Shown one piece after another: positions 1,603 to 47,302 of a stretch of 51,819 nt of DNA. The notes under the pieces are model-generated. The model did not search any database, was not told the origin of the DNA, and was given only the letters and a program-made list of their open reading frames with translations. Numbering within the stretch: the first letter of the stretch is position 1; the number at the start of each line of letters is the position of its first letter. The translations under genes and the position numbers were made by a program. The DNA is from a phage. Where the stretch lies: the NCBI GenBank assembly GCA_020279385.1, contig GCA_020279385.1_4133.1; one strand, 5' to 3'.

Positions 1603-1813
1603 GATCCGCTCTATTGCAACCAGAAGTCGATCAGGCTGGCGGTCGCTGTAGCATTCTCCTGTAATCCCATCTTTAAACGTAAAGTAAAGCGCCTTATGAT
1701 ATGAAAAACCAATCAGCCAGCCTACCGCCGTTTTTTGATGGGCCTGACTATATCGCCAGGCTTGAAAGTCTTTGTGGTAGAATGCGTTACTTTGTAACGG
1801 TTTTCACTGTTTA

Positions 1814-2200
1814 TCACAGATATTTGCCCTCAAACAGATAACATCCGCCAGCAGAGAATCCGACCTCTTCACGGTACAGGTTCCAGCGGTCGCCGCACTC
1901 ATCAAAAACATAACCCGCAACGCTTCCAAGCGGTCGCCCTTTCTCGATCTGGTATCGCTTGCCCTGCTTAAAGTGCTTTTTGCACGGCATGTTATGATCT
2001 ACAAACGTGCAAAGAACGGTTTTTGTGTTAATGGCGCGGTAATCATCTCGGTTTGCTGGAAGCCAGCGGCTACCCTTAACAAGCGTCTTAACCTGGAACT
2101 CTTCCACCTCGATCACATCATCACTTCCTGCAATCTTCTGATAAACCGTTTTAAAACGGCCTTTCATCAATACGTTGGTTTCATTACAGATAACATTCAT
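1814..2200 (-). CDS. Hypothetical protein (128 aa)
   Basis: ORF with AAGGAG RBS before ATG at 2200. Confidence 0.6.
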   Translation of the reverse strand: MNVICNETNVLMKGRFKTVYQKIAGSDDVIEVEEFQVKTLVKGSRWLPANRDDYRAINTKTVLCTFVDHNMPCKKHFKQGKRYQIEKGRPLGSVAGYVFDECGDRWNLYREEVGFSAGGCYLFEGKYL

Positions 2201-2254
2201 GATCAGATCTCCTTTGTTTGTTCGATGTGATTATGCCAGGTTTTTACACCTGGC

Positions 2255-2276
2255 TTTTAACAAAAAGTGCTATTTT
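2255..2276 (-). promoter_or_regulatory. Conserved intergenic element copy; contains the TAG stop of the 2270-2956 gene
   Basis: ttttaacaaaaagtgctatttt on plus strand; hairpin ccaggt/acctgg and CATAAT lie between it and the 2200 start. Confidence 0.5.
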
Positions 2277-2956
2277 GAGTTTGACTCAAAGACGGCGCGA
2301 GCAAATCCGCGCGGAGTGAGGGAGCGTAGTTGCTTTGTTCTGGCAGACTTACCTCCTAAAAACTTCCAACCCCAAAAGAACATTACGCCCTCATCATTGG
2401 ATAACGGCTTGCGTTCCGGTTCGGTAAATCCGTTGCCGCACCAGATAGCCGTCCTTTTAGTGTAGCCATCCTTTAGCGGCATTTTGGGGTGAAATGACCC
2501 ATCGGATTCGTCCAGGTAGTTACCAAAATCGCGCGGATTGAAATAAAAATCCGGCTTGCGCCATAGCGTTGATAGTCGGCCTACCGGATTCTCAGCCATC
2601 CAGGGAACACCGAAATGATTTCCGACTTTTTCAACCATGATTGCATTTTGGAGCGCGATATGAATATCGTCTTCGCTGCGCACATGCTTACTTCCTGATT
2701 GGGCGAACATGGTGCAGTCTGGAAAGCCAAATACAATATCAGGTTTTGGAATATCCATCTTAATGATGTTTTCAATGAAATTTTCATCAATCCACATATT
2801 CACATAATGCAGATTTTCATGCTTCATTTTGATGAAATATTCTCCGTGATTGCCTTCGTCAGCGTTAAAGCAATAGCATTGATAACCAGCCTTCGCATAT
2901 TCAAGCAACATGATTCCAGATCCATCAAACATTGAGTAAGCAACTTTATTTCCCAT
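2270..2956 (-). CDS. Short DNA C5-cytosine methyltransferase-like protein with atypical catalytic motif
   Basis: F-D-G-S-G (motif I-like) and DIVFGFPDCTMFAQSG resembling the PCQ motif IV region, plus ENP (ENV-like); start taken at internal ATG just after the HNH stop; no target-recognition domain evident. Confidence 0.45.
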   Translation of the reverse strand: MGNKVAYSMFDGSGIMLLEYAKAGYQCYCFNADEGNHGEYFIKMKHENLHYVNMWIDENFIENIIKMDIPKPDIVFGFPDCTMFAQSGSKHVRSEDDIHIALQNAIMVEKVGNHFGVPWMAENPVGRLSTLWRKPDFYFNPRDFGNYLDESDGSFHPKMPLKDGYTKRTAIWCGNGFTEPERKPLSNDEGVMFFWGWKFLGGKSARTKQLRSLTPRGFARAVFESNSK

Positions 2957-3473
2957 GATTTTTATGATACCCCAATTCATTCTCGGCTTTACGTTTTGCG
3001 GCAACAGCATCTCCAAAACTGGAGAAACAACCTATATAAATCCTACTTCCTCGCTTTCCGCTTCCAACCCTTACAATCCACTTGCCATGTTTATTTTTAT
3101 GCACACCTGGTATGCCACTTGTATTGTTTTTCTGCTTTGATGTGTTTCGCATATTTCCTTTGTGATCTTTTAACTCAAAGTTTATTGCTCTGTTATCAGT
3201 CGTAATGTGATTTACGTGATCAACCTCCATTCCTTCCGGTATAGGCCCATAGTGCATTTCATAGCATATTCTATGAACTTTCAGGTTATAACGTTTTCCG
3301 TTTACAGTAAGTGCGGTTTCTAAATATCTGCCACCACTACCCAAAGAGCCAACCTCATTACCAGCATTACAAGCATTCCATTGTTTAACTCTTGATTGGT
3401 GAATATCTTTTCTTTCTTTCCAGAACAGCTTTCCGGTTTCTGGATTGTATGTAAAGTAATCGTGCCAATTCAT
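2946..3473 (-). CDS. HNH homing endonuclease with AP2-like DNA-binding region
   Basis: HNH-type His/Asn residues (EVDHVNH..N) plus C-terminal basic domain; paralog of 48048-48533; GAGGTGA RBS. Confidence 0.7.
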   Translation of the reverse strand: MNWHDYFTYNPETGKLFWKERKDIHQSRVKQWNACNAGNEVGSLGSGGRYLETALTVNGKRYNLKVHRICYEMHYGPIPEGMEVDHVNHITTDNRAINFELKDHKGNMRNTSKQKNNTSGIPGVHKNKHGKWIVRVGSGKRGSRIYIGCFSSFGDAVAAKRKAENELGYHKNHGK

Positions 3474-3481
3474 TCATCACC

Positions 3482-3706
3482 TCAAAACGGAAAACAGCGC
3501 GCACAACTAGGATCGAAATCGCATCCACAATCATTAACAATCATAGTGGGATCTGCAAATATTGCGCTTGATTCAAGATCCATATCCATATCACCTAAAG
3601 CCTCATCAAGAGTCTTAATTTTATATGCCACTTCAAGCGCCGCCTCTTTATTTAGTCCGGCATCTTCTGCCATTTGAAGGCGCTCAAAAAATCCGTCTTG
3701 ACTCAT
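3482..3706 (-). CDS. Hypothetical acidic protein (74 aa) with C-terminal Cys cluster
   Basis: ORF with ATG start; CGCDFDPSCARC motif. Confidence 0.5.
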   Translation of the reverse strand: MSQDGFFERLQMAEDAGLNKEAALEVAYKIKTLDEALGDMDMDLESSAIFADPTMIVNDCGCDFDPSCARCFPF

Positions 3707-39970: not shown

Positions 39971-40166
39971 TTTGTTTTAGATACAGCTTCAACTTATTGT
40001 CAACATCAGTAGTTGATGCTTTTCCTGCAACATCCTGTTTTAGTGTCGAAACATCACTTTTCAGCTTCGTTATATCACCAGGAATAGTAGCAACATCCTG
40101 TTTTAGTGTTGAAACATCATTTTTCAGCCTCGTTATATCACTAGGTATAACAGTTACTGTAGCCAT
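39906..40166 (-). CDS. Small fibre-like protein with tandem 21-aa repeats; probably the 5' part of a frameshifted gene
   Basis: AAGGAG RBS; DITRLKNDVSTLKQDVA / DITKLKSDVSTLKQDVA repeats. Confidence 0.5.
   Translation of the reverse strand: MATVTVIPSDITRLKNDVSTLKQDVATIPGDITKLKSDVSTLKQDVAGKASTTDVDNKLKLYLKQNDLSSELDSGRYGGNFYPPDW
40028..40150 (-). repeat. Tandem 63-bp coding repeats
   Basis: caacatcctgttttagtgtcgaaacatcacttttcagcttcgttatatcacc repeated with few changes. Confidence 0.6.
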
Positions 40167-40178
40167 TTTCCTAACTCC

Positions 40179-40457
40179 TTAAGCCCATTCTCTAATCGGC
40201 TGATCTAACTCAACCACGTAGCCATTAAAAATTACGGCATCAAACTCATCATCAATGATTCGCACATTAACGAAATAGCCGTCGTTCTTTCGCGCAATCT
40301 CCTCGCCATCGTCAGATCGTGCAATTACTGTATAAGTATTGCCGATTACATCGAGCAGGATTGCATCCTGAATGGATTCGTTATCATCCCAATTAATTTT
40401 TCCTAAAAAGGCCGAAAACTCGGCCTTGTCTGCAAATTTTAATGTTAAATCACGCAT
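40179..40457 (-). CDS. Hypothetical protein (about 92 aa) between fibre genes
   Basis: ATG overlaps the tail fibre stop (TAATG). Confidence 0.45.
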   Translation of the reverse strand: MRDLTLKFADKAEFSAFLGKINWDDNESIQDAILLDVIGNTYTVIARSDDGEEIARKNDGYFVNVRIIDDEFDAVIFNGYVVELDQPIREWA

Positions 40458-42424
40458 TAAACAATTTCCCCCAATTGATGATCTGTTAGCGCCTTGTGCC
40501 ATATACGGAAGTTTCTAACGTGCCCGAAAAGATGGCGTTCGCCTGTACTTGTTTGTCCGCCAATCCTTATAGTGGCCGTCGATCTTATGTATCTCCATTC
40601 CGTTTTTGTTTCGCTTGATATTCTGGCATTACTTACACAGCAATTATTGTAATCACTCTTTACTCTCATTCCCATGATCATCTTTTTTAGTTTCGCATTC
40701 TCGTAAACCCTTCGGTTTGAGTTACCTATATCGCAATAAGGGAATCCGTCATTATCTCCCCCAGCAGACCCAAAAGCAAGAATAATTGCCGCTCCGGTTT
40801 GATGGCCGACTGTATCAAAAACACGCGGCGCTGCGTTTGGCGTTATACTCCAGTTTTTATGAGCTTCCACAAGCACTGTAAAAGGCAAATTGTAAAGGTT
40901 GTTTTTTATTGGCAATGTAACCATATCGCTTGCCCTTGTTGCCGGAGTTCCATCAGTGATAACCAGAGACGAAGCAGATGATCCGTTTTCAACTTGGGCG
41001 GTAGCTATAGTCATAAATTGACCTGCGGTAATATCCTGGCCTGCCCTTGCTATCATCTCAACGCGAGCATACATCTTTATATCTTCTGGTGCTCTATATG
41101 TACCCTGGAATAGTACCCATCCACCTGATTCTTGCTTTACATCATACGTCAAATTAACCCCTCCAGTCACATCAAGAGTGACAAGATCAAGCATCACATC
41201 AGCTATAAATATGTTTTCTTGTCCATCAGGACTGAGTTTGGAGAATCGCAATCTTAACCTAACTGGTGAAGAATATTCCTCGCCGATTCTTGCGCGTATT
41301 GAGATAGTTCCATACTCACCATTCGCAACATCCACTACGCGAGATGTACCAGTTGAAATTGCTGTGATCGGGCCAGTATCTTGACTTTCTTTATAAGTGA
41401 ATTTAGCGGAAGTTATACCAAATTCATCTGTAGAATCAGCTGATACGTCCAGTCTGTTTACGTTTCTATTCCATTTGTTCGGTGAATTGCTATTTATGAA
41501 GTTGTTTGTTCTCTGCCCTTCAATCAGCAATCCATCTCTTTCAAAACGCGGTTCATCAATTGCTGCAACAGTAAGAATACCTGATTTGTTAATGTATGTT
41601 GCAGTTGATGCACGTTTAAATTTGACAATCTTGTCGCCCGGCATCGTGATCTCATCATCACCTATGACAATCTTTTTGTATGACGGCGAGAATCCGGTGA
41701 TCATATCCAGGGAATCATTAAATGGTATCCACACGTCAGGCAGAGGCTGCAATAAATCTTTGTAAGGTTCTTCGGCCTGCTTTGCGTATTCCTCCGCTTG
41801 ATCTCTAGCACTTTCAGCACCTGTCTTTGCGGCATTCGCAGCATCACGCGCAGTTTCAGCGCCTTTTCTTGCAGTTTCAGCGCCAGTCTTTGCGGTATTT
41901 GCAGCGTCACGCGCGGATTCAGCGGCAGCCTTTGCAGTATCAGCACCTTTCTTGCTATTCTCTGCATTTGTTGCGCTTGTCTTTGCGTTATTCTCGCTAG
42001 TTTTAGCTGCCTTCTGGCTTGCTGCGGCTGCGTCAGCATTTGTCTTTACGTCTTCCTGGATCTTCTGTAGCTTATCCCAATCAAAATCCTTGATGATCTC
42101 AATAAATCCAGCAAACTCCGATTCCTTCCCCTGGTAATAACGCAACGTTTCCGCTACGTCTTGCGCAAGACCGTCAACCGTTAACGAGTCATGAAGCAAG
42201 ATCAGGTAATTTGTCTTCTTGACTACCGCGCCGCCAGTAGTAATTGCGCGAATGCTTGTATCGCTAATCACTTCCGTAATCACAGCAGCTTGCAAAGGTT
42301 GAGCAAGAAAGAAAATAGTTGCACCTGGGCGAATCAAGGTTAATTGCTCACGCCATTTTGTACCGTAACCAGTTACATAACCTTGCGCGTCCATAGACGC
42401 TTGGCCTTGTCTGTAAATCGCCAT
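40457..42424 (-). CDS. Tail fibre protein
   Basis: 655 aa from ATG 42424 (AGGAGG RBS); Ala/Thr/Lys-rich repeats; C-terminal lectin-like beta region. Confidence 0.65.
   Translation of the reverse strand: MAIYRQGQASMDAQGYVTGYGTKWREQLTLIRPGATIFFLAQPLQAAVITEVISDTSIRAITTGGAVVKKTNYLILLHDSLTVDGLAQDVAETLRYYQGKESEFAGFIEIIKDFDWDKLQKIQEDVKTNADAAAASQKAAKTSENNAKTSATNAENSKKGADTAKAAAESARDAANTAKTGAETARKGAETARDAANAAKTGAESARDQAEEYAKQAEEPYKDLLQPLPDVWIPFNDSLDMITGFSPSYKKIVIGDDEITMPGDKIVKFKRASTATYINKSGILTVAAIDEPRFERDGLLIEGQRTNNFINSNSPNKWNRNVNRLDVSADSTDEFGITSAKFTYKESQDTGPITAISTGTSRVVDVANGEYGTISIRARIGEEYSSPVRLRLRFSKLSPDGQENIFIADVMLDLVTLDVTGGVNLTYDVKQESGGWVLFQGTYRAPEDIKMYARVEMIARAGQDITAGQFMTIATAQVENGSSASSLVITDGTPATRASDMVTLPIKNNLYNLPFTVLVEAHKNWSITPNAAPRVFDTVGHQTGAAIILAFGSAGGDNDGFPYCDIGNSNRRVYENAKLKKMIMGMRVKSDYNNCCVSNARISSETKTEWRYIRSTATIRIGGQTSTGERHLFGHVRNFRIWHKALTDHQLGEIV
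41773..42013 (-). repeat. Low-complexity tandem repeats in tail fibre gene
   Basis: AKTSENNAKTSATNAENSKKGADTAKAAAESARDAANTAKTGAETARKGAETARDAANAAKTGAESARD. Confidence 0.55.
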
Positions 42425-46512: not shown

Positions 46513-46576
46513 TGGCGCGATGGATTGCGCCATAATTCAATAACACGAGATGGCTTTTAATAGCGGAGAAATGAAA

Positions 46577-47302
46577 ATGGCTAAAGATATTTTAGATAAA
46601 GACACCCATGACGCATTCGTTAGCTTTGAGCAGTTGGAGAGAGAAACGTTTATAGGAAATGCTCTTGCAACTGGAGGCCATTACCAGGCAGTAAAGCCAA
46701 ATCAATATTATAAGGTAAGCGGCAACCGATACGCTGGAAGCACTACGCCGGACGTTGTGCGCGATATGTGGAGCACACCTCAAGAGATCGTGGAGTGGAT
46801 GGAATCAGAATTTGGCGAATACGATCTCGACGCGGCAGCAAGCCAGGAAAACGCAGTTTGCGAGAAGTTCTACAGCAAGGAAACAAACTGCTTAAAGCGT
46901 TGGTGGGGTAGCAACAAGCACGTATGGCTTAACCCGCCGTACAGCAACCCAACTCCATTTATCAAGAAAGCAATTGAGCAAATGGAGCACAACAACCAAA
47001 TTGATGTTTTGTTGCCATCCGACAACTCTACAGCATGGTTTTATGAGGCGCAGAAAAACGCGGCTGAAATTATCTGGATCACTGGCGAGGTTTACGAAGA
47101 GGGTGGAGTAGAATACTCCCGCACCGGAAGAATTGCCTTTGTGTCTGGATTGACTGGTGAGCCTGTGCAGGGCAACAACAAGGGAAGCGTGATTTTTGTC
47201 ATGCGCAAACTTAAAGAAGGCGAGGAGCAGAAAACGCGATACGTTAAGATCAGCGATATTTGCCCTTCTGTAACCGAACGTCGCGCACGCAAACGGAGCT
47301 AA
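46577..47302 (+). CDS. dam: DNA N6-adenine methyltransferase (Dam-like)
   Basis: NPPY motif (WLNPPYSNP); alternative ATG at 46571. Confidence 0.7.
   Translation: MAKDILDKDTHDAFVSFEQLERETFIGNALATGGHYQAVKPNQYYKVSGNRYAGSTTPDVVRDMWSTPQEIVEWMESEFGEYDLDAAASQENAVCEKFYSKETNCLKRWWGSNKHVWLNPPYSNPTPFIKKAIEQMEHNNQIDVLLPSDNSTAWFYEAQKNAAEIIWITGEVYEEGGVEYSRTGRIAFVSGLTGEPVQGNNKGSVIFVMRKLKEGEEQKTRYVKISDICPSVTERRARKRS

What the first reader, a model, noticed from the sequence alone, without database searches (positions are those of the whole stretch)
2270..2956. Short C5-methyltransferase-like protein with FPDC in place of the catalytic PCQ motif
The 228-aa protein keeps a motif I-like FDGSG and a motif IV-like DIVFGFPDCTMFAQSG but has PDC instead of PCQ and no evident target-recognition domain. 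It could be a minimal or orphan cytosine methylase, an enzyme with different chemistry (base hypermodification), or an inactive decoy. It sits directly beside an HNH endonuclease, and the genome also has a separate Dam-like methylase.
Basis: partly seen in the sequence, partly recalled or inferred. Interest (0 to 1): 0.5.

Follow-up and report, generated by a model that had tools for sequence, protein, structure and literature searches.

The report
Small orphan phage cytosine-C5 DNA methyltransferase
This is an ordinary, already catalogued accessory gene of T1-like coliphages: a very compact DNA cytosine-C5 methyltransferase whose syntenic relative in phage KarlJaspers/K42 has been shown to make 5-methylcytosine and to set off the retron Ec86 defence, and the neighbouring HNH gene is just a mobile homing-endonuclease insertion.

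Summary
A 228-aa ORF on the minus strand (2956->2270) carries FDGSG, GFPDCT and AENPVG. It is not a new kind of protein. It belongs to phrog_757 (E=5e-78), a family found in about 1,490 phage records and 1,811 protein clusters. Near-identical genes are already annotated as "putative DNA cytosine methyltransferase".

"PDC" is not an insertion. Asp80 replaces the Pro of the Pro-Cys dipeptide, and that position varies across the family (P, D, S, E, V, Q). Cys81, Glu122-Asn-Pro and Pro79 are near-invariant, and dN/dS is 0.10.

The HNH gene is a ~520-bp homing-endonuclease insertion that is absent from relatives, so it is not a restriction partner. The Dam-like gene is confirmed at 46550-47302.

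Activity and target (probably CCWGG) of this Asp-Cys lineage are inferred, not measured.

Verdict: already known, low interest.

The parts
2270..2956 (-). Coding sequence of the 228-aa small orphan C5-cytosine DNA methyltransferase (stop codon included)
   Evidence: ORF and translation; phrog_757 E=5e-78; 45% identical and syntenic to KarlJaspers bas06_0055 'Dcm-like C5 cytosine methyltransferase'; AF2 model pLDDT 90.7 with a C5-MTase fold
2915..2929 (-). Motif I, F10-D-G-S-G14 (SAM-binding glycine loop after strand 1)
   Evidence: Aligned to M.HaeIII FSGAG and M.HhaI FAGLG; D11, G12, S13 and G14 invariant in close homologues
2711..2725 (-). Motif IV, F78-P79-D80-C81-T82: predicted catalytic nucleophile Cys81, with Asp80 in place of the canonical Pro
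   Evidence: Reverse complement reads TTT CCA GAC TGC ACC. C81 aligns with Cys71 of M.HaeIII, Cys81 of M.HhaI and Cys82 of KarlJaspers/K42 Dcm. C81, T82 and P79 are near-invariant; position 80 varies
2579..2593 (-). Motif VI, E122-N-P-V-G126 (ENV-type Glu, predicted to protonate cytosine N3)
   Evidence: E122 is invariant in 112 of 112 deep family members. It aligns to E128 of K42 Dcm and to ENV of M.HhaI
2441..2464 (-). Conserved Y165-T-K167-R168-T169-A-I-W172 strand, a motif VIII-like basic pair
   Evidence: Y165, K167, T169 and W172 are 99% conserved. K167 and R168 align with K175 and K176 of K42 Dcm, which the authors called substrate-binding. Equivalence to QxRxR is inferred
2291..2326 (-). 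C-terminal R211-S-L-T-P-R-G-F-A-R-A-V222, a motif IX-like helix start; the protein ends 6 residues later
   Evidence: R211, P215 and G217 are over 90% conserved. Resemblance to M.HhaI RKLHPRECARVM is by eye against the verified M.HhaI sequence; no tool aligned it
2946..3473 (-). Free-standing HNH homing endonuclease gene (175 aa) inserted just upstream; its stop overlaps the methylase start by 11 nt
   Evidence: PF13392 HNH_3 E=9.5e-15 and phrog_99 E=1.7e-51. Absent at this position in KarlJaspers and BEK7; the alignment shows a clean insertion after ...CCGTTTTGAGG. Similarity to 10 listed relatives (H13-H22) stops at window 2941-2951
2235..2254 (-). Conserved 7-bp stem-loop GCCAGGU-GUAAAA-ACCUGGC, 16 nt after the methylase stop; both arms contain CCWGG
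   Evidence: RNA fold -15.3 kcal/mol, z=-3.7; nearly identical in KarlJaspers. No T-run follows, so the terminator scan did not call it
1814..2200 (-). Downstream neighbour, a 128-aa protein of unknown function (context only)
   Evidence: phrog_2684 E=2.9e-42; 74% identical to KarlJaspers bas06_0054
3482..3706 (-). Upstream neighbour, a 74-aa protein of unknown function (context only)
   Evidence: 84% identical to KarlJaspers bas06_0056
46550..47302 (+). Separate Dam-like N6-adenine methyltransferase gene, the second orphan methylase of the phage
   Evidence: ORF; tblastn 84% identity to KarlJaspers 'Dam-like N6-adenine methyltransferase'

Best explanation
The gene encodes an active, orphan, SAM-dependent DNA cytosine-C5 methyltransferase of the very small phage family phrog_757 (the 'phage Dcm' family).

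Inferred mechanism, as in all C5-MTases: the FDGSG loop and Asn31 hold SAM. The target cytosine is flipped out. Cys81 attacks C6, and Glu122 (ENP) protonates N3. The methyl group goes to C5 and Cys81 leaves by beta-elimination. Asp80 sits where other enzymes have the Pro of the Pro-Cys dipeptide. In this family that position is tolerant, and the conserved Pro is one residue earlier.

Biological role (inferred): the enzyme methylates phage DNA during infection, which protects it from cytosine-sensitive restriction. By analogy with K42 Dcm the likely target is CCWGG. As a side effect the enzyme can betray the phage to methylation-sensing defences such as retron Ec86/Eco1.

The gene is accessory. 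Phage T1 lacks it, and K42 deletion mutants are viable.

Shown here: homology, fold, residue conservation, selection and synteny. Shown by others on a 45%-identical homologue: 5mC formation and retron triggering. Inferred only: activity and specificity of this Asp-Cys allele.
For: phrog_757 E=5e-78. About 1,490 phage records carry a homologue, many annotated as cytosine methyltransferase.

KarlJaspers bas06_0055 is syntenic, 711 bp and 45% identical over its full length, E=6e-72. Its residues C82, E128, K175 and K176 coincide exactly with those named for K42 Dcm.

The K42 paper reports LC-MS detection of 5mC on msDNA when Dcm is expressed but not with the quadruple mutant. It also reports escape mutants in dcm, loss of defence when the msDNA CCTGG is mutated, and that 34 of 35 Ec86-sensitive phages encode a Dcm.

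C81, T82, G88, E122, N123 and P124 are invariant or nearly so. dN/dS is 0.10.

CCWGG (131 observed, 132.6 expected) and GATC (315, 312) are not avoided, while CCSGG, GAATTC and CTAG are. This is only circumstantial.
Against: No activity has been measured for this allele or for any Asp-Cys member that I could find.

Sequence profiles do not place it in the canonical family. PF00145 scores 12.8 bits against a cut-off of 22. Only 1 of 109 diverse members reaches PF00145 at E<=0.01. Family profiles find no solved C5-MTase by sequence.

The canonical Pro of the Pro-Cys dipeptide is missing. A recognisable TRD and motif X could not be located.

K42 Dcm specificity was assumed from E. coli Dcm and supported only by msDNA mutagenesis. 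At 45% identity the target of this allele may differ.
Confidence: 0.8

Rival explanations
1. The Asp-Cys allele transfers a different group or feeds a hypermodification pathway. It could be a CmoX-like carboxymethyltransferase using host Cx-SAM, or the first step of a methylase plus TET-like dioxygenase pathway.
Confidence: 0.05
2. It is a catalytically dead methyltransferase-like protein. Loss of the Pro-Cys dipeptide would make it a decoy, a DNA binder or a SAM binder.
For: The canonical Pro before the catalytic Cys is replaced by Asp. The protein is below Pfam threshold. No TRD is recognisable.
Against: Cys81, Glu122-Asn-Pro and the SAM-loop residues are invariant across the lineage and nearly so across 1,811 clusters. 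dN/dS is 0.10. Position -1 is naturally variable (P, D, S, E, V, Q) in a family whose PPC member is active. Conserving a nucleophile and a general acid is unexpected for a pseudo-enzyme.
Confidence: 0.06
3. The methylase and the adjacent HNH endonuclease form a restriction-modification or other functionally coupled pair.
For: The genes are adjacent and co-oriented, and the HNH stop overlaps the methylase start by 11 nt.
Against: The HNH gene is a clean ~520-bp insertion that is absent in KarlJaspers and BEK7, which keep the methylase. Similarity to 10 listed relatives (H13-H22) ends at the junction. It belongs to HNH_3 / phrog_99, the typical phage homing endonucleases. Other copies sit next to unrelated genes in BEK7 and T1.
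Confidence: 0.02
4. It methylates RNA (DNMT2-like tRNA m5C) or acts mainly on single-stranded or hairpin nucleic acid, not on duplex phage DNA.
Confidence: 0.04

Closest known systems
Phage K42 / KarlJaspers (Bas06) 'Dcm', the trigger of retron Ec86 (Eco1) (bioRxiv 10.1101/2023.08.16.553469; GenBank MZ501090 bas06_0055)
   Same: The locus and gene order are the same. The size is similar (236 vs 228 aa), and identity is 45% over the full length. C82, E128, K175 and K176 correspond to C81, E122, K167 and R168. Both have FDGSG, ENPVG and an identical C-terminal RSLTPRGFARAVFE.
   Different: Motif IV is AFPPCTD there and GFPDCTM here. Three segments are strongly diverged: about 83-114, 146-162 and 178-200. 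These are the catalytic loop and the region where a TRD would lie, so specificity may differ. Flanking genes are 74-84% identical but the methylase only 45%, which points to allelic replacement. Activity is shown only for K42.
Canonical bacterial type II C5-MTases (M.HhaI, M.HaeIII, E. coli Dcm; Pfam PF00145)
   Different: It is about 100 residues shorter. There is no recognisable TRD or motif X. It has Asp-Cys-Thr where they have Pro-Cys-Gln, Asn31 where motif II has an acidic residue, and K-R/K-T where motif VIII has QxRxR. It is below the Pfam threshold. It has no cognate restriction enzyme.
DNMT3A/DNMT3B catalytic domains
   Different: Sequence identity is only 12-16%. The DNMT3 enzymes are about 60 residues longer after motif VIII, work as oligomers with DNMT3L, and target CpG.
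CmoX, the phage DNA cytosine C5-carboxymethyltransferase (PDB 8yf3; PMC12783734)
   Different: CmoX is 333-372 aa. It carries SPPC and the Cx-SAM-binding Arg350 in motif X, and it is usually next to cmoA and a ligase gene. None of these is seen here.

Membership tests
Small phage 'Dcm-like' methyltransferases (phrog_757; K42/KarlJaspers Dcm family) | Significant full-length match to the family profile | tested here: met
   phrog_757 E=5.1e-78, residues 3-227; 1,811 clusters match the family profile, with typical length 200-260 aa
Small phage 'Dcm-like' methyltransferases (phrog_757; K42/KarlJaspers Dcm family) | Homology and synteny with the experimentally characterised member | tested here: met
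   45% identity over 236 columns, E=6e-72; same position between the bas06_0054 and bas06_0056 homologues
Small phage 'Dcm-like' methyltransferases (phrog_757; K42/KarlJaspers Dcm family) | Conservation of the residues mutated in the inactive K42 Dcm (C82, E128, K175, K176) | tested here: met
   They align to C81, E122, K167 and R168. C81, E122 and K167 are at least 99% conserved; position 168 is mainly K or R
Small phage 'Dcm-like' methyltransferases (phrog_757; K42/KarlJaspers Dcm family) | Formation of 5mC in DNA, and triggering of retron Ec86 | not testable with these tools
   Reported only for K42 Dcm; needs wet-lab work for this allele
C5-cytosine DNA methyltransferases (PF00145 / DNMT superfamily) | Pfam PF00145 match above the gathering score | tested here: not met
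   12.8 bits against a cut-off of 22, E=0.079, residues 8-91 only; 1 of 109 diverse relatives reaches E<=0.01
C5-cytosine DNA methyltransferases (PF00145 / DNMT superfamily) | C5-MTase catalytic-domain fold | tested here: met
C5-cytosine DNA methyltransferases (PF00145 / DNMT superfamily) | Motif I FxGxG (SAM binding) | tested here: met
   FDGSG at 10-14 aligns with FSGAG of M.HaeIII and FAGLG of M.HhaI
C5-cytosine DNA methyltransferases (PF00145 / DNMT superfamily) | Motif IV catalytic cysteine | tested here: met
   Cys81 aligns with HaeIII Cys71, HhaI Cys81 and K42 Cys82; invariant in the family
C5-cytosine DNA methyltransferases (PF00145 / DNMT superfamily) | Pro immediately before the catalytic Cys (Pro-Cys dipeptide) | tested here: not met
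   Asp80 occupies this position. Counts are D 90, S 18, P 11, Q 2 in close homologues, and P 88 of 112 in the deep set
C5-cytosine DNA methyltransferases (PF00145 / DNMT superfamily) | Motif VI ENV glutamate | tested here: met
   E122-N-P; E is invariant in 112 of 112; aligned to ENV of M.HhaI
C5-cytosine DNA methyltransferases (PF00145 / DNMT superfamily) | Motif VIII QxRxR | tested here: inconclusive
   The conserved Y165-x-K167-(K/R)168-T169 strand is the likely counterpart, but no tool aligned it to QxRxR
C5-cytosine DNA methyltransferases (PF00145 / DNMT superfamily) | Target-recognition domain between motifs VIII and IX, and motif X (GN[AS]V) | tested here: inconclusive
   Only about 54 residues follow the motif VIII-like strand. 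RSLTPRGFARAV resembles motif IX by eye. Motif X was not located.
CmoX carboxymethyltransferases | SPPC motif plus Arg at the M.HhaI Asn304 position; cmoA and ligase genes nearby | tested here: not met
   Motif IV is FPDC. The Arg350 equivalent could not be mapped. No cmoA or ligase gene is annotated in syntenic genomes
Type II restriction-modification system | A cognate endonuclease that is always linked to the methylase | tested here: not met
   The neighbouring HNH_3 gene is present or absent among close relatives that all keep the methylase

The most novel reading that the evidence does not exclude
The Asp-Cys (FPDCT-hydrophobic) lineage is not just another CCWGG 5mC methylase. Its remodelled catalytic loop and its diverged segments 146-162 and 178-200 could give it a different target sequence, a different substrate form, or even a different transferred group from the PPC-type K42 enzyme. 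The deep two-allele polymorphism at one locus, shuffled between phage genera, would then reflect selection by restriction systems and by methylation-sensing defences such as retron Ec86.
Probability: 0.15. Interest if true: 0.5.

Novelty: already known. Interest (0 to 1): 0.2.

Why it matters
It matters little as a discovery. The gene is already annotated in near-identical phages, and its family has a characterised member.

Three modest points remain.

1. This very abundant family of phage C5-methyltransferases escapes Pfam PF00145 and NCBIfam. Profile-based annotation will therefore miss a known trigger of retron Ec86/Eco1.
2. A 228-aa enzyme with no recognisable TRD, and with a tolerant position in place of the "invariant" Pro of the Pro-Cys dipeptide, is a useful minimal model. 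It could show how C5-MTases recognise DNA and position the nucleophile.
3. Two alleles only 45% identical sit at one locus and are exchanged between genera. That hints at diversifying pressure on phage methylases.

Tried and rejected
1. Sequence-profile links to solved C5-MTases. phmmer gave only E=0.035 to M.HaeIII. Family profiles A2 and A3 found no C5-MTase in PDB sequences. NCBIfam gave nothing. The assignment therefore rests on the fold and on the K42 homologue.

2. Mapping the C-terminal half (motifs VIII-X) with hhalign against the verified M.HhaI sequence. Only motifs I-VI aligned, and weakly. Motif X and the CmoX Arg350 position stay unmapped.

3. The idea that the HNH insertion duplicated the methylase's original start, based on ATGAATTGG occurring at both ends. 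Rejected: BEK7, which lacks the HNH gene, starts at the ATG equivalent to 2956.

4. The idea that Asp moved from +2 to -1 of the Cys as a compensatory swap. The association is strong in raw counts (0 of 91 against 72 of 117). But it comes from essentially one lineage and is not significant after de-replication (p=0.10).

5. An RM-pair reading of HNH plus methylase. Rejected on presence/absence polymorphism.

7. Literature searches for methylome or specificity data on this family found nothing beyond the retron work.

Full report
OBSERVATION

The window is a T1-like coliphage genome of the Drexlerviridae (Tempevirinae, Warwickvirus). The surveyed region (window 1800-3500) is 99.5% identical to Escherichia phage JLBYU10.

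The reported ORF is real but lies on the minus strand, from the ATG at 2956 to the TAG at 2270-2272, and encodes 228 aa. It contains three motifs:
- FDGSG at residues 10-14
- DIVFGFPDCTMFAQSG at residues 73-88, with Cys81
- AENPVG at residues 121-126

The 228-aa start is the homologous one. Phage BEK7 has the same allele (228 aa, MKQKIAYSMFDGSG...) and no upstream HNH gene. It starts at the equivalent ATG, 8 nt after a GAGG Shine-Dalgarno. The longer starts used in some annotations (236-246 aa) lie inside the HNH gene.

WHAT IT IS

Pfam's C5-MTase model only grazes the protein: PF00145 scores 12.8 bits against a cut-off of 22, over residues 8-91. NCBIfam finds nothing. PHROGs places it firmly in phrog_757, "DNA methyltransferase", at E=5e-78.

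The family is very common:
- tblastn finds a homologue in 1,492 phage records. These include Drexlerviridae, Klebsiella siphoviruses, RB49-like myoviruses and Seuratvirus relatives.
- 608 clusters at 90% identity match.
- An exhaustive profile search finds 1,811 clusters at 50% identity. Nearly all are 200-260 aa.

Near-identical genes are already annotated as "putative DNA cytosine methyltransferase" or "Dcm-like C5 cytosine methyltransferase".

LINK TO A CHARACTERISED ENZYME

A bioRxiv paper on retron Ec86 (10.1101/2023.08.16.553469) studied phage K42, whose genome is 95.4% identical to KarlJaspers/Bas06. It reports the following:
- All four Ec86 escape mutants hit a 711-bp dcm gene.
- Dcm expression is toxic only when Ec86 is present.
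- LC-MS detects 5mC on msDNA with Dcm but not with a C82A/E128A/K175A/K176A mutant.
- Mutating the msDNA CCTGG abolishes defence.
- 34 of 35 Ec86-sensitive phages encode a Dcm.

I fetched KarlJaspers (MZ501090). Its 711-bp "Dcm-like" gene sits at the syntenic position, and its residues 82, 128, 175 and 176 are exactly C, E, K and K. Our protein is 45% identical to it over the full length, E=6e-72. Those four residues map to C81, E122, K167 and R168.

FOLD

An AlphaFold2 model built from 42 homologues is confident: mean pLDDT 90.7 and pTM 0.89. Confidence is low only at about residues 81-100, the catalytic-loop region.

- Foldseek against the PDB returns DNMT3A/3B catalytic domains for the top ~45 hits (E about 1e-7, probability 1.00). 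DNMT1 and the prophage CP-933R methylase follow.
- BFVD returns small phage "cytosine methylases" with TM 0.77-0.90.

Sequence profiles of the family do not reach any solved C5-MTase. Only 1 of 109 diverse members touches PF00145. The family is therefore a highly diverged branch that standard annotation profiles miss.

THE "PDC" MOTIF

Alignments to M.HaeIII, to M.HhaI (sequence verified; hhalign) and to KarlJaspers (AFPPCTD against GFPDCTM) all agree. Cys81 lies on the catalytic Cys, and Asp80 lies on the Pro of the Pro-Cys dipeptide. This is a substitution, not an insertion.

- Among 121 close homologues position 80 is D 90, S 18, P 11 and Q 2. Pro79, Cys81, Thr82 and Gly88 are invariant or nearly so.
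- Among 150 deep cluster representatives motif IV is PPCT 85, PVCT 9, PECT 8, PSCT 5 and PDCT 4.

PPC is therefore the commonest state among the deep cluster representatives, and the -1 position is tolerant. Asp-Cys marks one abundant enterobacterial-phage lineage.

Glu122 is invariant (112 of 112) and Asn123-Pro124 nearly so. Tyr165, Lys167, Thr169, Trp172, Arg211, Pro215 and Gly217 are also highly conserved. dN/dS against PeterMerian is 0.10, with dS=0.21. These facts argue for an active enzyme and against a decoy.

An apparent swap of an Asp between positions +2 and -1 of the Cys is a single-lineage signal. It is not significant after de-replication.

SIZE AND MISSING PARTS

The protein is about 100 residues shorter than M.HhaI. 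Two features stand out:
- A ~30-residue conserved insertion lies between the strands at 137-139 and 169-174.
- Only about 54 residues follow the motif VIII-like strand.

The C-terminal RSLTPRGFARAV resembles motif IX of M.HhaI (RKLHPRECARVM) by eye, and the protein ends six residues later. I could not locate motif X or a TRD. I could not superpose structures because coordinates are not exposed.

The segments most diverged from KarlJaspers Dcm are about 83-114, 146-162 and 178-200. They are the best candidates for DNA recognition. This is inference.

SURROUNDINGS

The HNH gene (2946-3473, minus strand; PF13392 E=9.5e-15; phrog_99) is a clean ~520-bp insertion. It lies between the stop of the upstream 74-aa gene (...CCGTTTTGAGG) and the methylase start.

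- KarlJaspers and BEK7 lack it.
- Similarity to 10 listed relatives (H13-H22) ends at window 2941-2951.
- The insertion took over the original Shine-Dalgarno. The methylase ATG now overlaps the HNH stop, which suggests translational coupling (inference).

It is a homing endonuclease, not a restriction partner.

The Dam-like gene exists at 46550-47302 on the plus strand. Phage T1 itself has Dam but no Dcm-like gene, so the gene is accessory. This fits the viable K42 deletion mutants.

The flanking genes are 74-84% identical to KarlJaspers, but the methylase is only 45%. BEK7 is in the same genus as KarlJaspers yet carries our allele. So two old alleles are exchanged at this locus.

CCWGG (131 observed, 132.6 expected) and GATC (315, 312.2) are not avoided in the genome. 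CCSGG (6 against 21.8), GAATTC (3 against 10.8) and CTAG (34 against 71.2) are avoided. This fits protection at Dcm and Dam sites but does not prove it.

RIVALS

- A dead decoy: about 6%.
- An RNA or single-strand-specific role: about 4%.
- An RM pair with HNH: about 2%.

VERDICT

This is a known, abundant, orphan phage C5-cytosine DNA methyltransferase with a lineage-specific Asp-for-Pro change next to the catalytic cysteine. Membership in the K42 Dcm / phrog_757 family is established. Membership in the C5-MTase superfamily is established by fold and by the catalytic Cys and Glu, but not by Pfam threshold or by the Pro-Cys dipeptide.

Activity and target of this allele remain inferred. Novelty: already known. 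Interest: low (0.2).

Noticed in passing
window 2270-2956 versus L003 (MZ501090) 40087-40797; flanks at window 1814-2200 and 3482-3706: Two deeply diverged methylase alleles (45% identity) occupy the same locus, while the flanking genes are 74-84% identical. The last ~75 nt of the gene and the downstream spacer are almost identical. BEK7 (Hanrivervirus, like KarlJaspers) carries the Warwickvirus-type allele. This suggests allelic replacement by recombination inside the gene and possibly diversifying pressure on the methylase.
   Followed up: partly
window 2235-2254 (minus strand): A conserved 7-bp stem-loop, GCCAGGU-GUAAAA-ACCUGGC (z=-3.7), lies 16 nt after the methylase stop. No T-run follows it. 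Both arms are CCWGG sites, the presumed target of this enzyme family. It resembles the CCTGG-bearing stem-loop of Ec86 msDNA. Its function is unknown.
   Followed up: partly
window 2946-3473 (minus strand): The HNH homing-endonuclease cassette replaced the methylase's own Shine-Dalgarno and its first ~4 codons. The methylase ATG now lies 11 nt inside the end of the HNH ORF, so methylase expression may depend on translational coupling to the homing endonuclease.
   Followed up: partly
phage records MG065636-MG065687 ('Campylobacter phage A14b, A119, A16a ...'): About 20-39 unannotated records labelled Campylobacter jejuni phages match this T1-like coliphage region at 86-97% DNA identity. They are probably mislabelled or contaminant Drexlerviridae sequences.
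   Followed up: no
L001 (OK272486) JLBYU10_18, JLBYU10_21, JLBYU10_23: Several small neighbouring ORFs in JLBYU10 carry implausible names. A 128-aa protein is called 'phosphoglucomutase/phosphomannomutase', a 74-aa protein 'cytosine DNA methylase' and a 75-aa protein 'polyribonucleotide nucleotidyltransferase'. Pfam gives no support for the 128-aa protein, which is only phrog_2684 of unknown function. These look like annotation artefacts.
   Followed up: partly
BFVD hits A0A6J5SE15 (1,397 aa) and A0A6J5NPY6 (1,126 aa): The same small methylase fold occurs as one domain of very large proteins of uncultured Caudovirales, one of them named Helicase/UvrB N-terminal. So the module also exists fused to helicase-like proteins.
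   Followed up: no
whole window: Several palindromes are strongly avoided: CCSGG 6 against 21.8 expected, GAATTC 3 against 10.8, CTAG 34 against 71.2, and GGCC, AGCT and GTAC at about 0.72. CCWGG, GATC and GCGC are at expectation. The pattern fits protection at Dcm and Dam sites and counter-selection at other restriction sites.
   Followed up: partly
P0015 (Bdellovibrio sp. 22V, 3.6-Mb contig), P0054/P0110 (Salmonella), P0059 (Serratia): Homologues 57-63% identical occur in bacterial chromosomes, presumably in prophages. One is in a Bdellovibrio genome, an unexpected host for an enterobacterial-phage-type gene.
   Followed up: no
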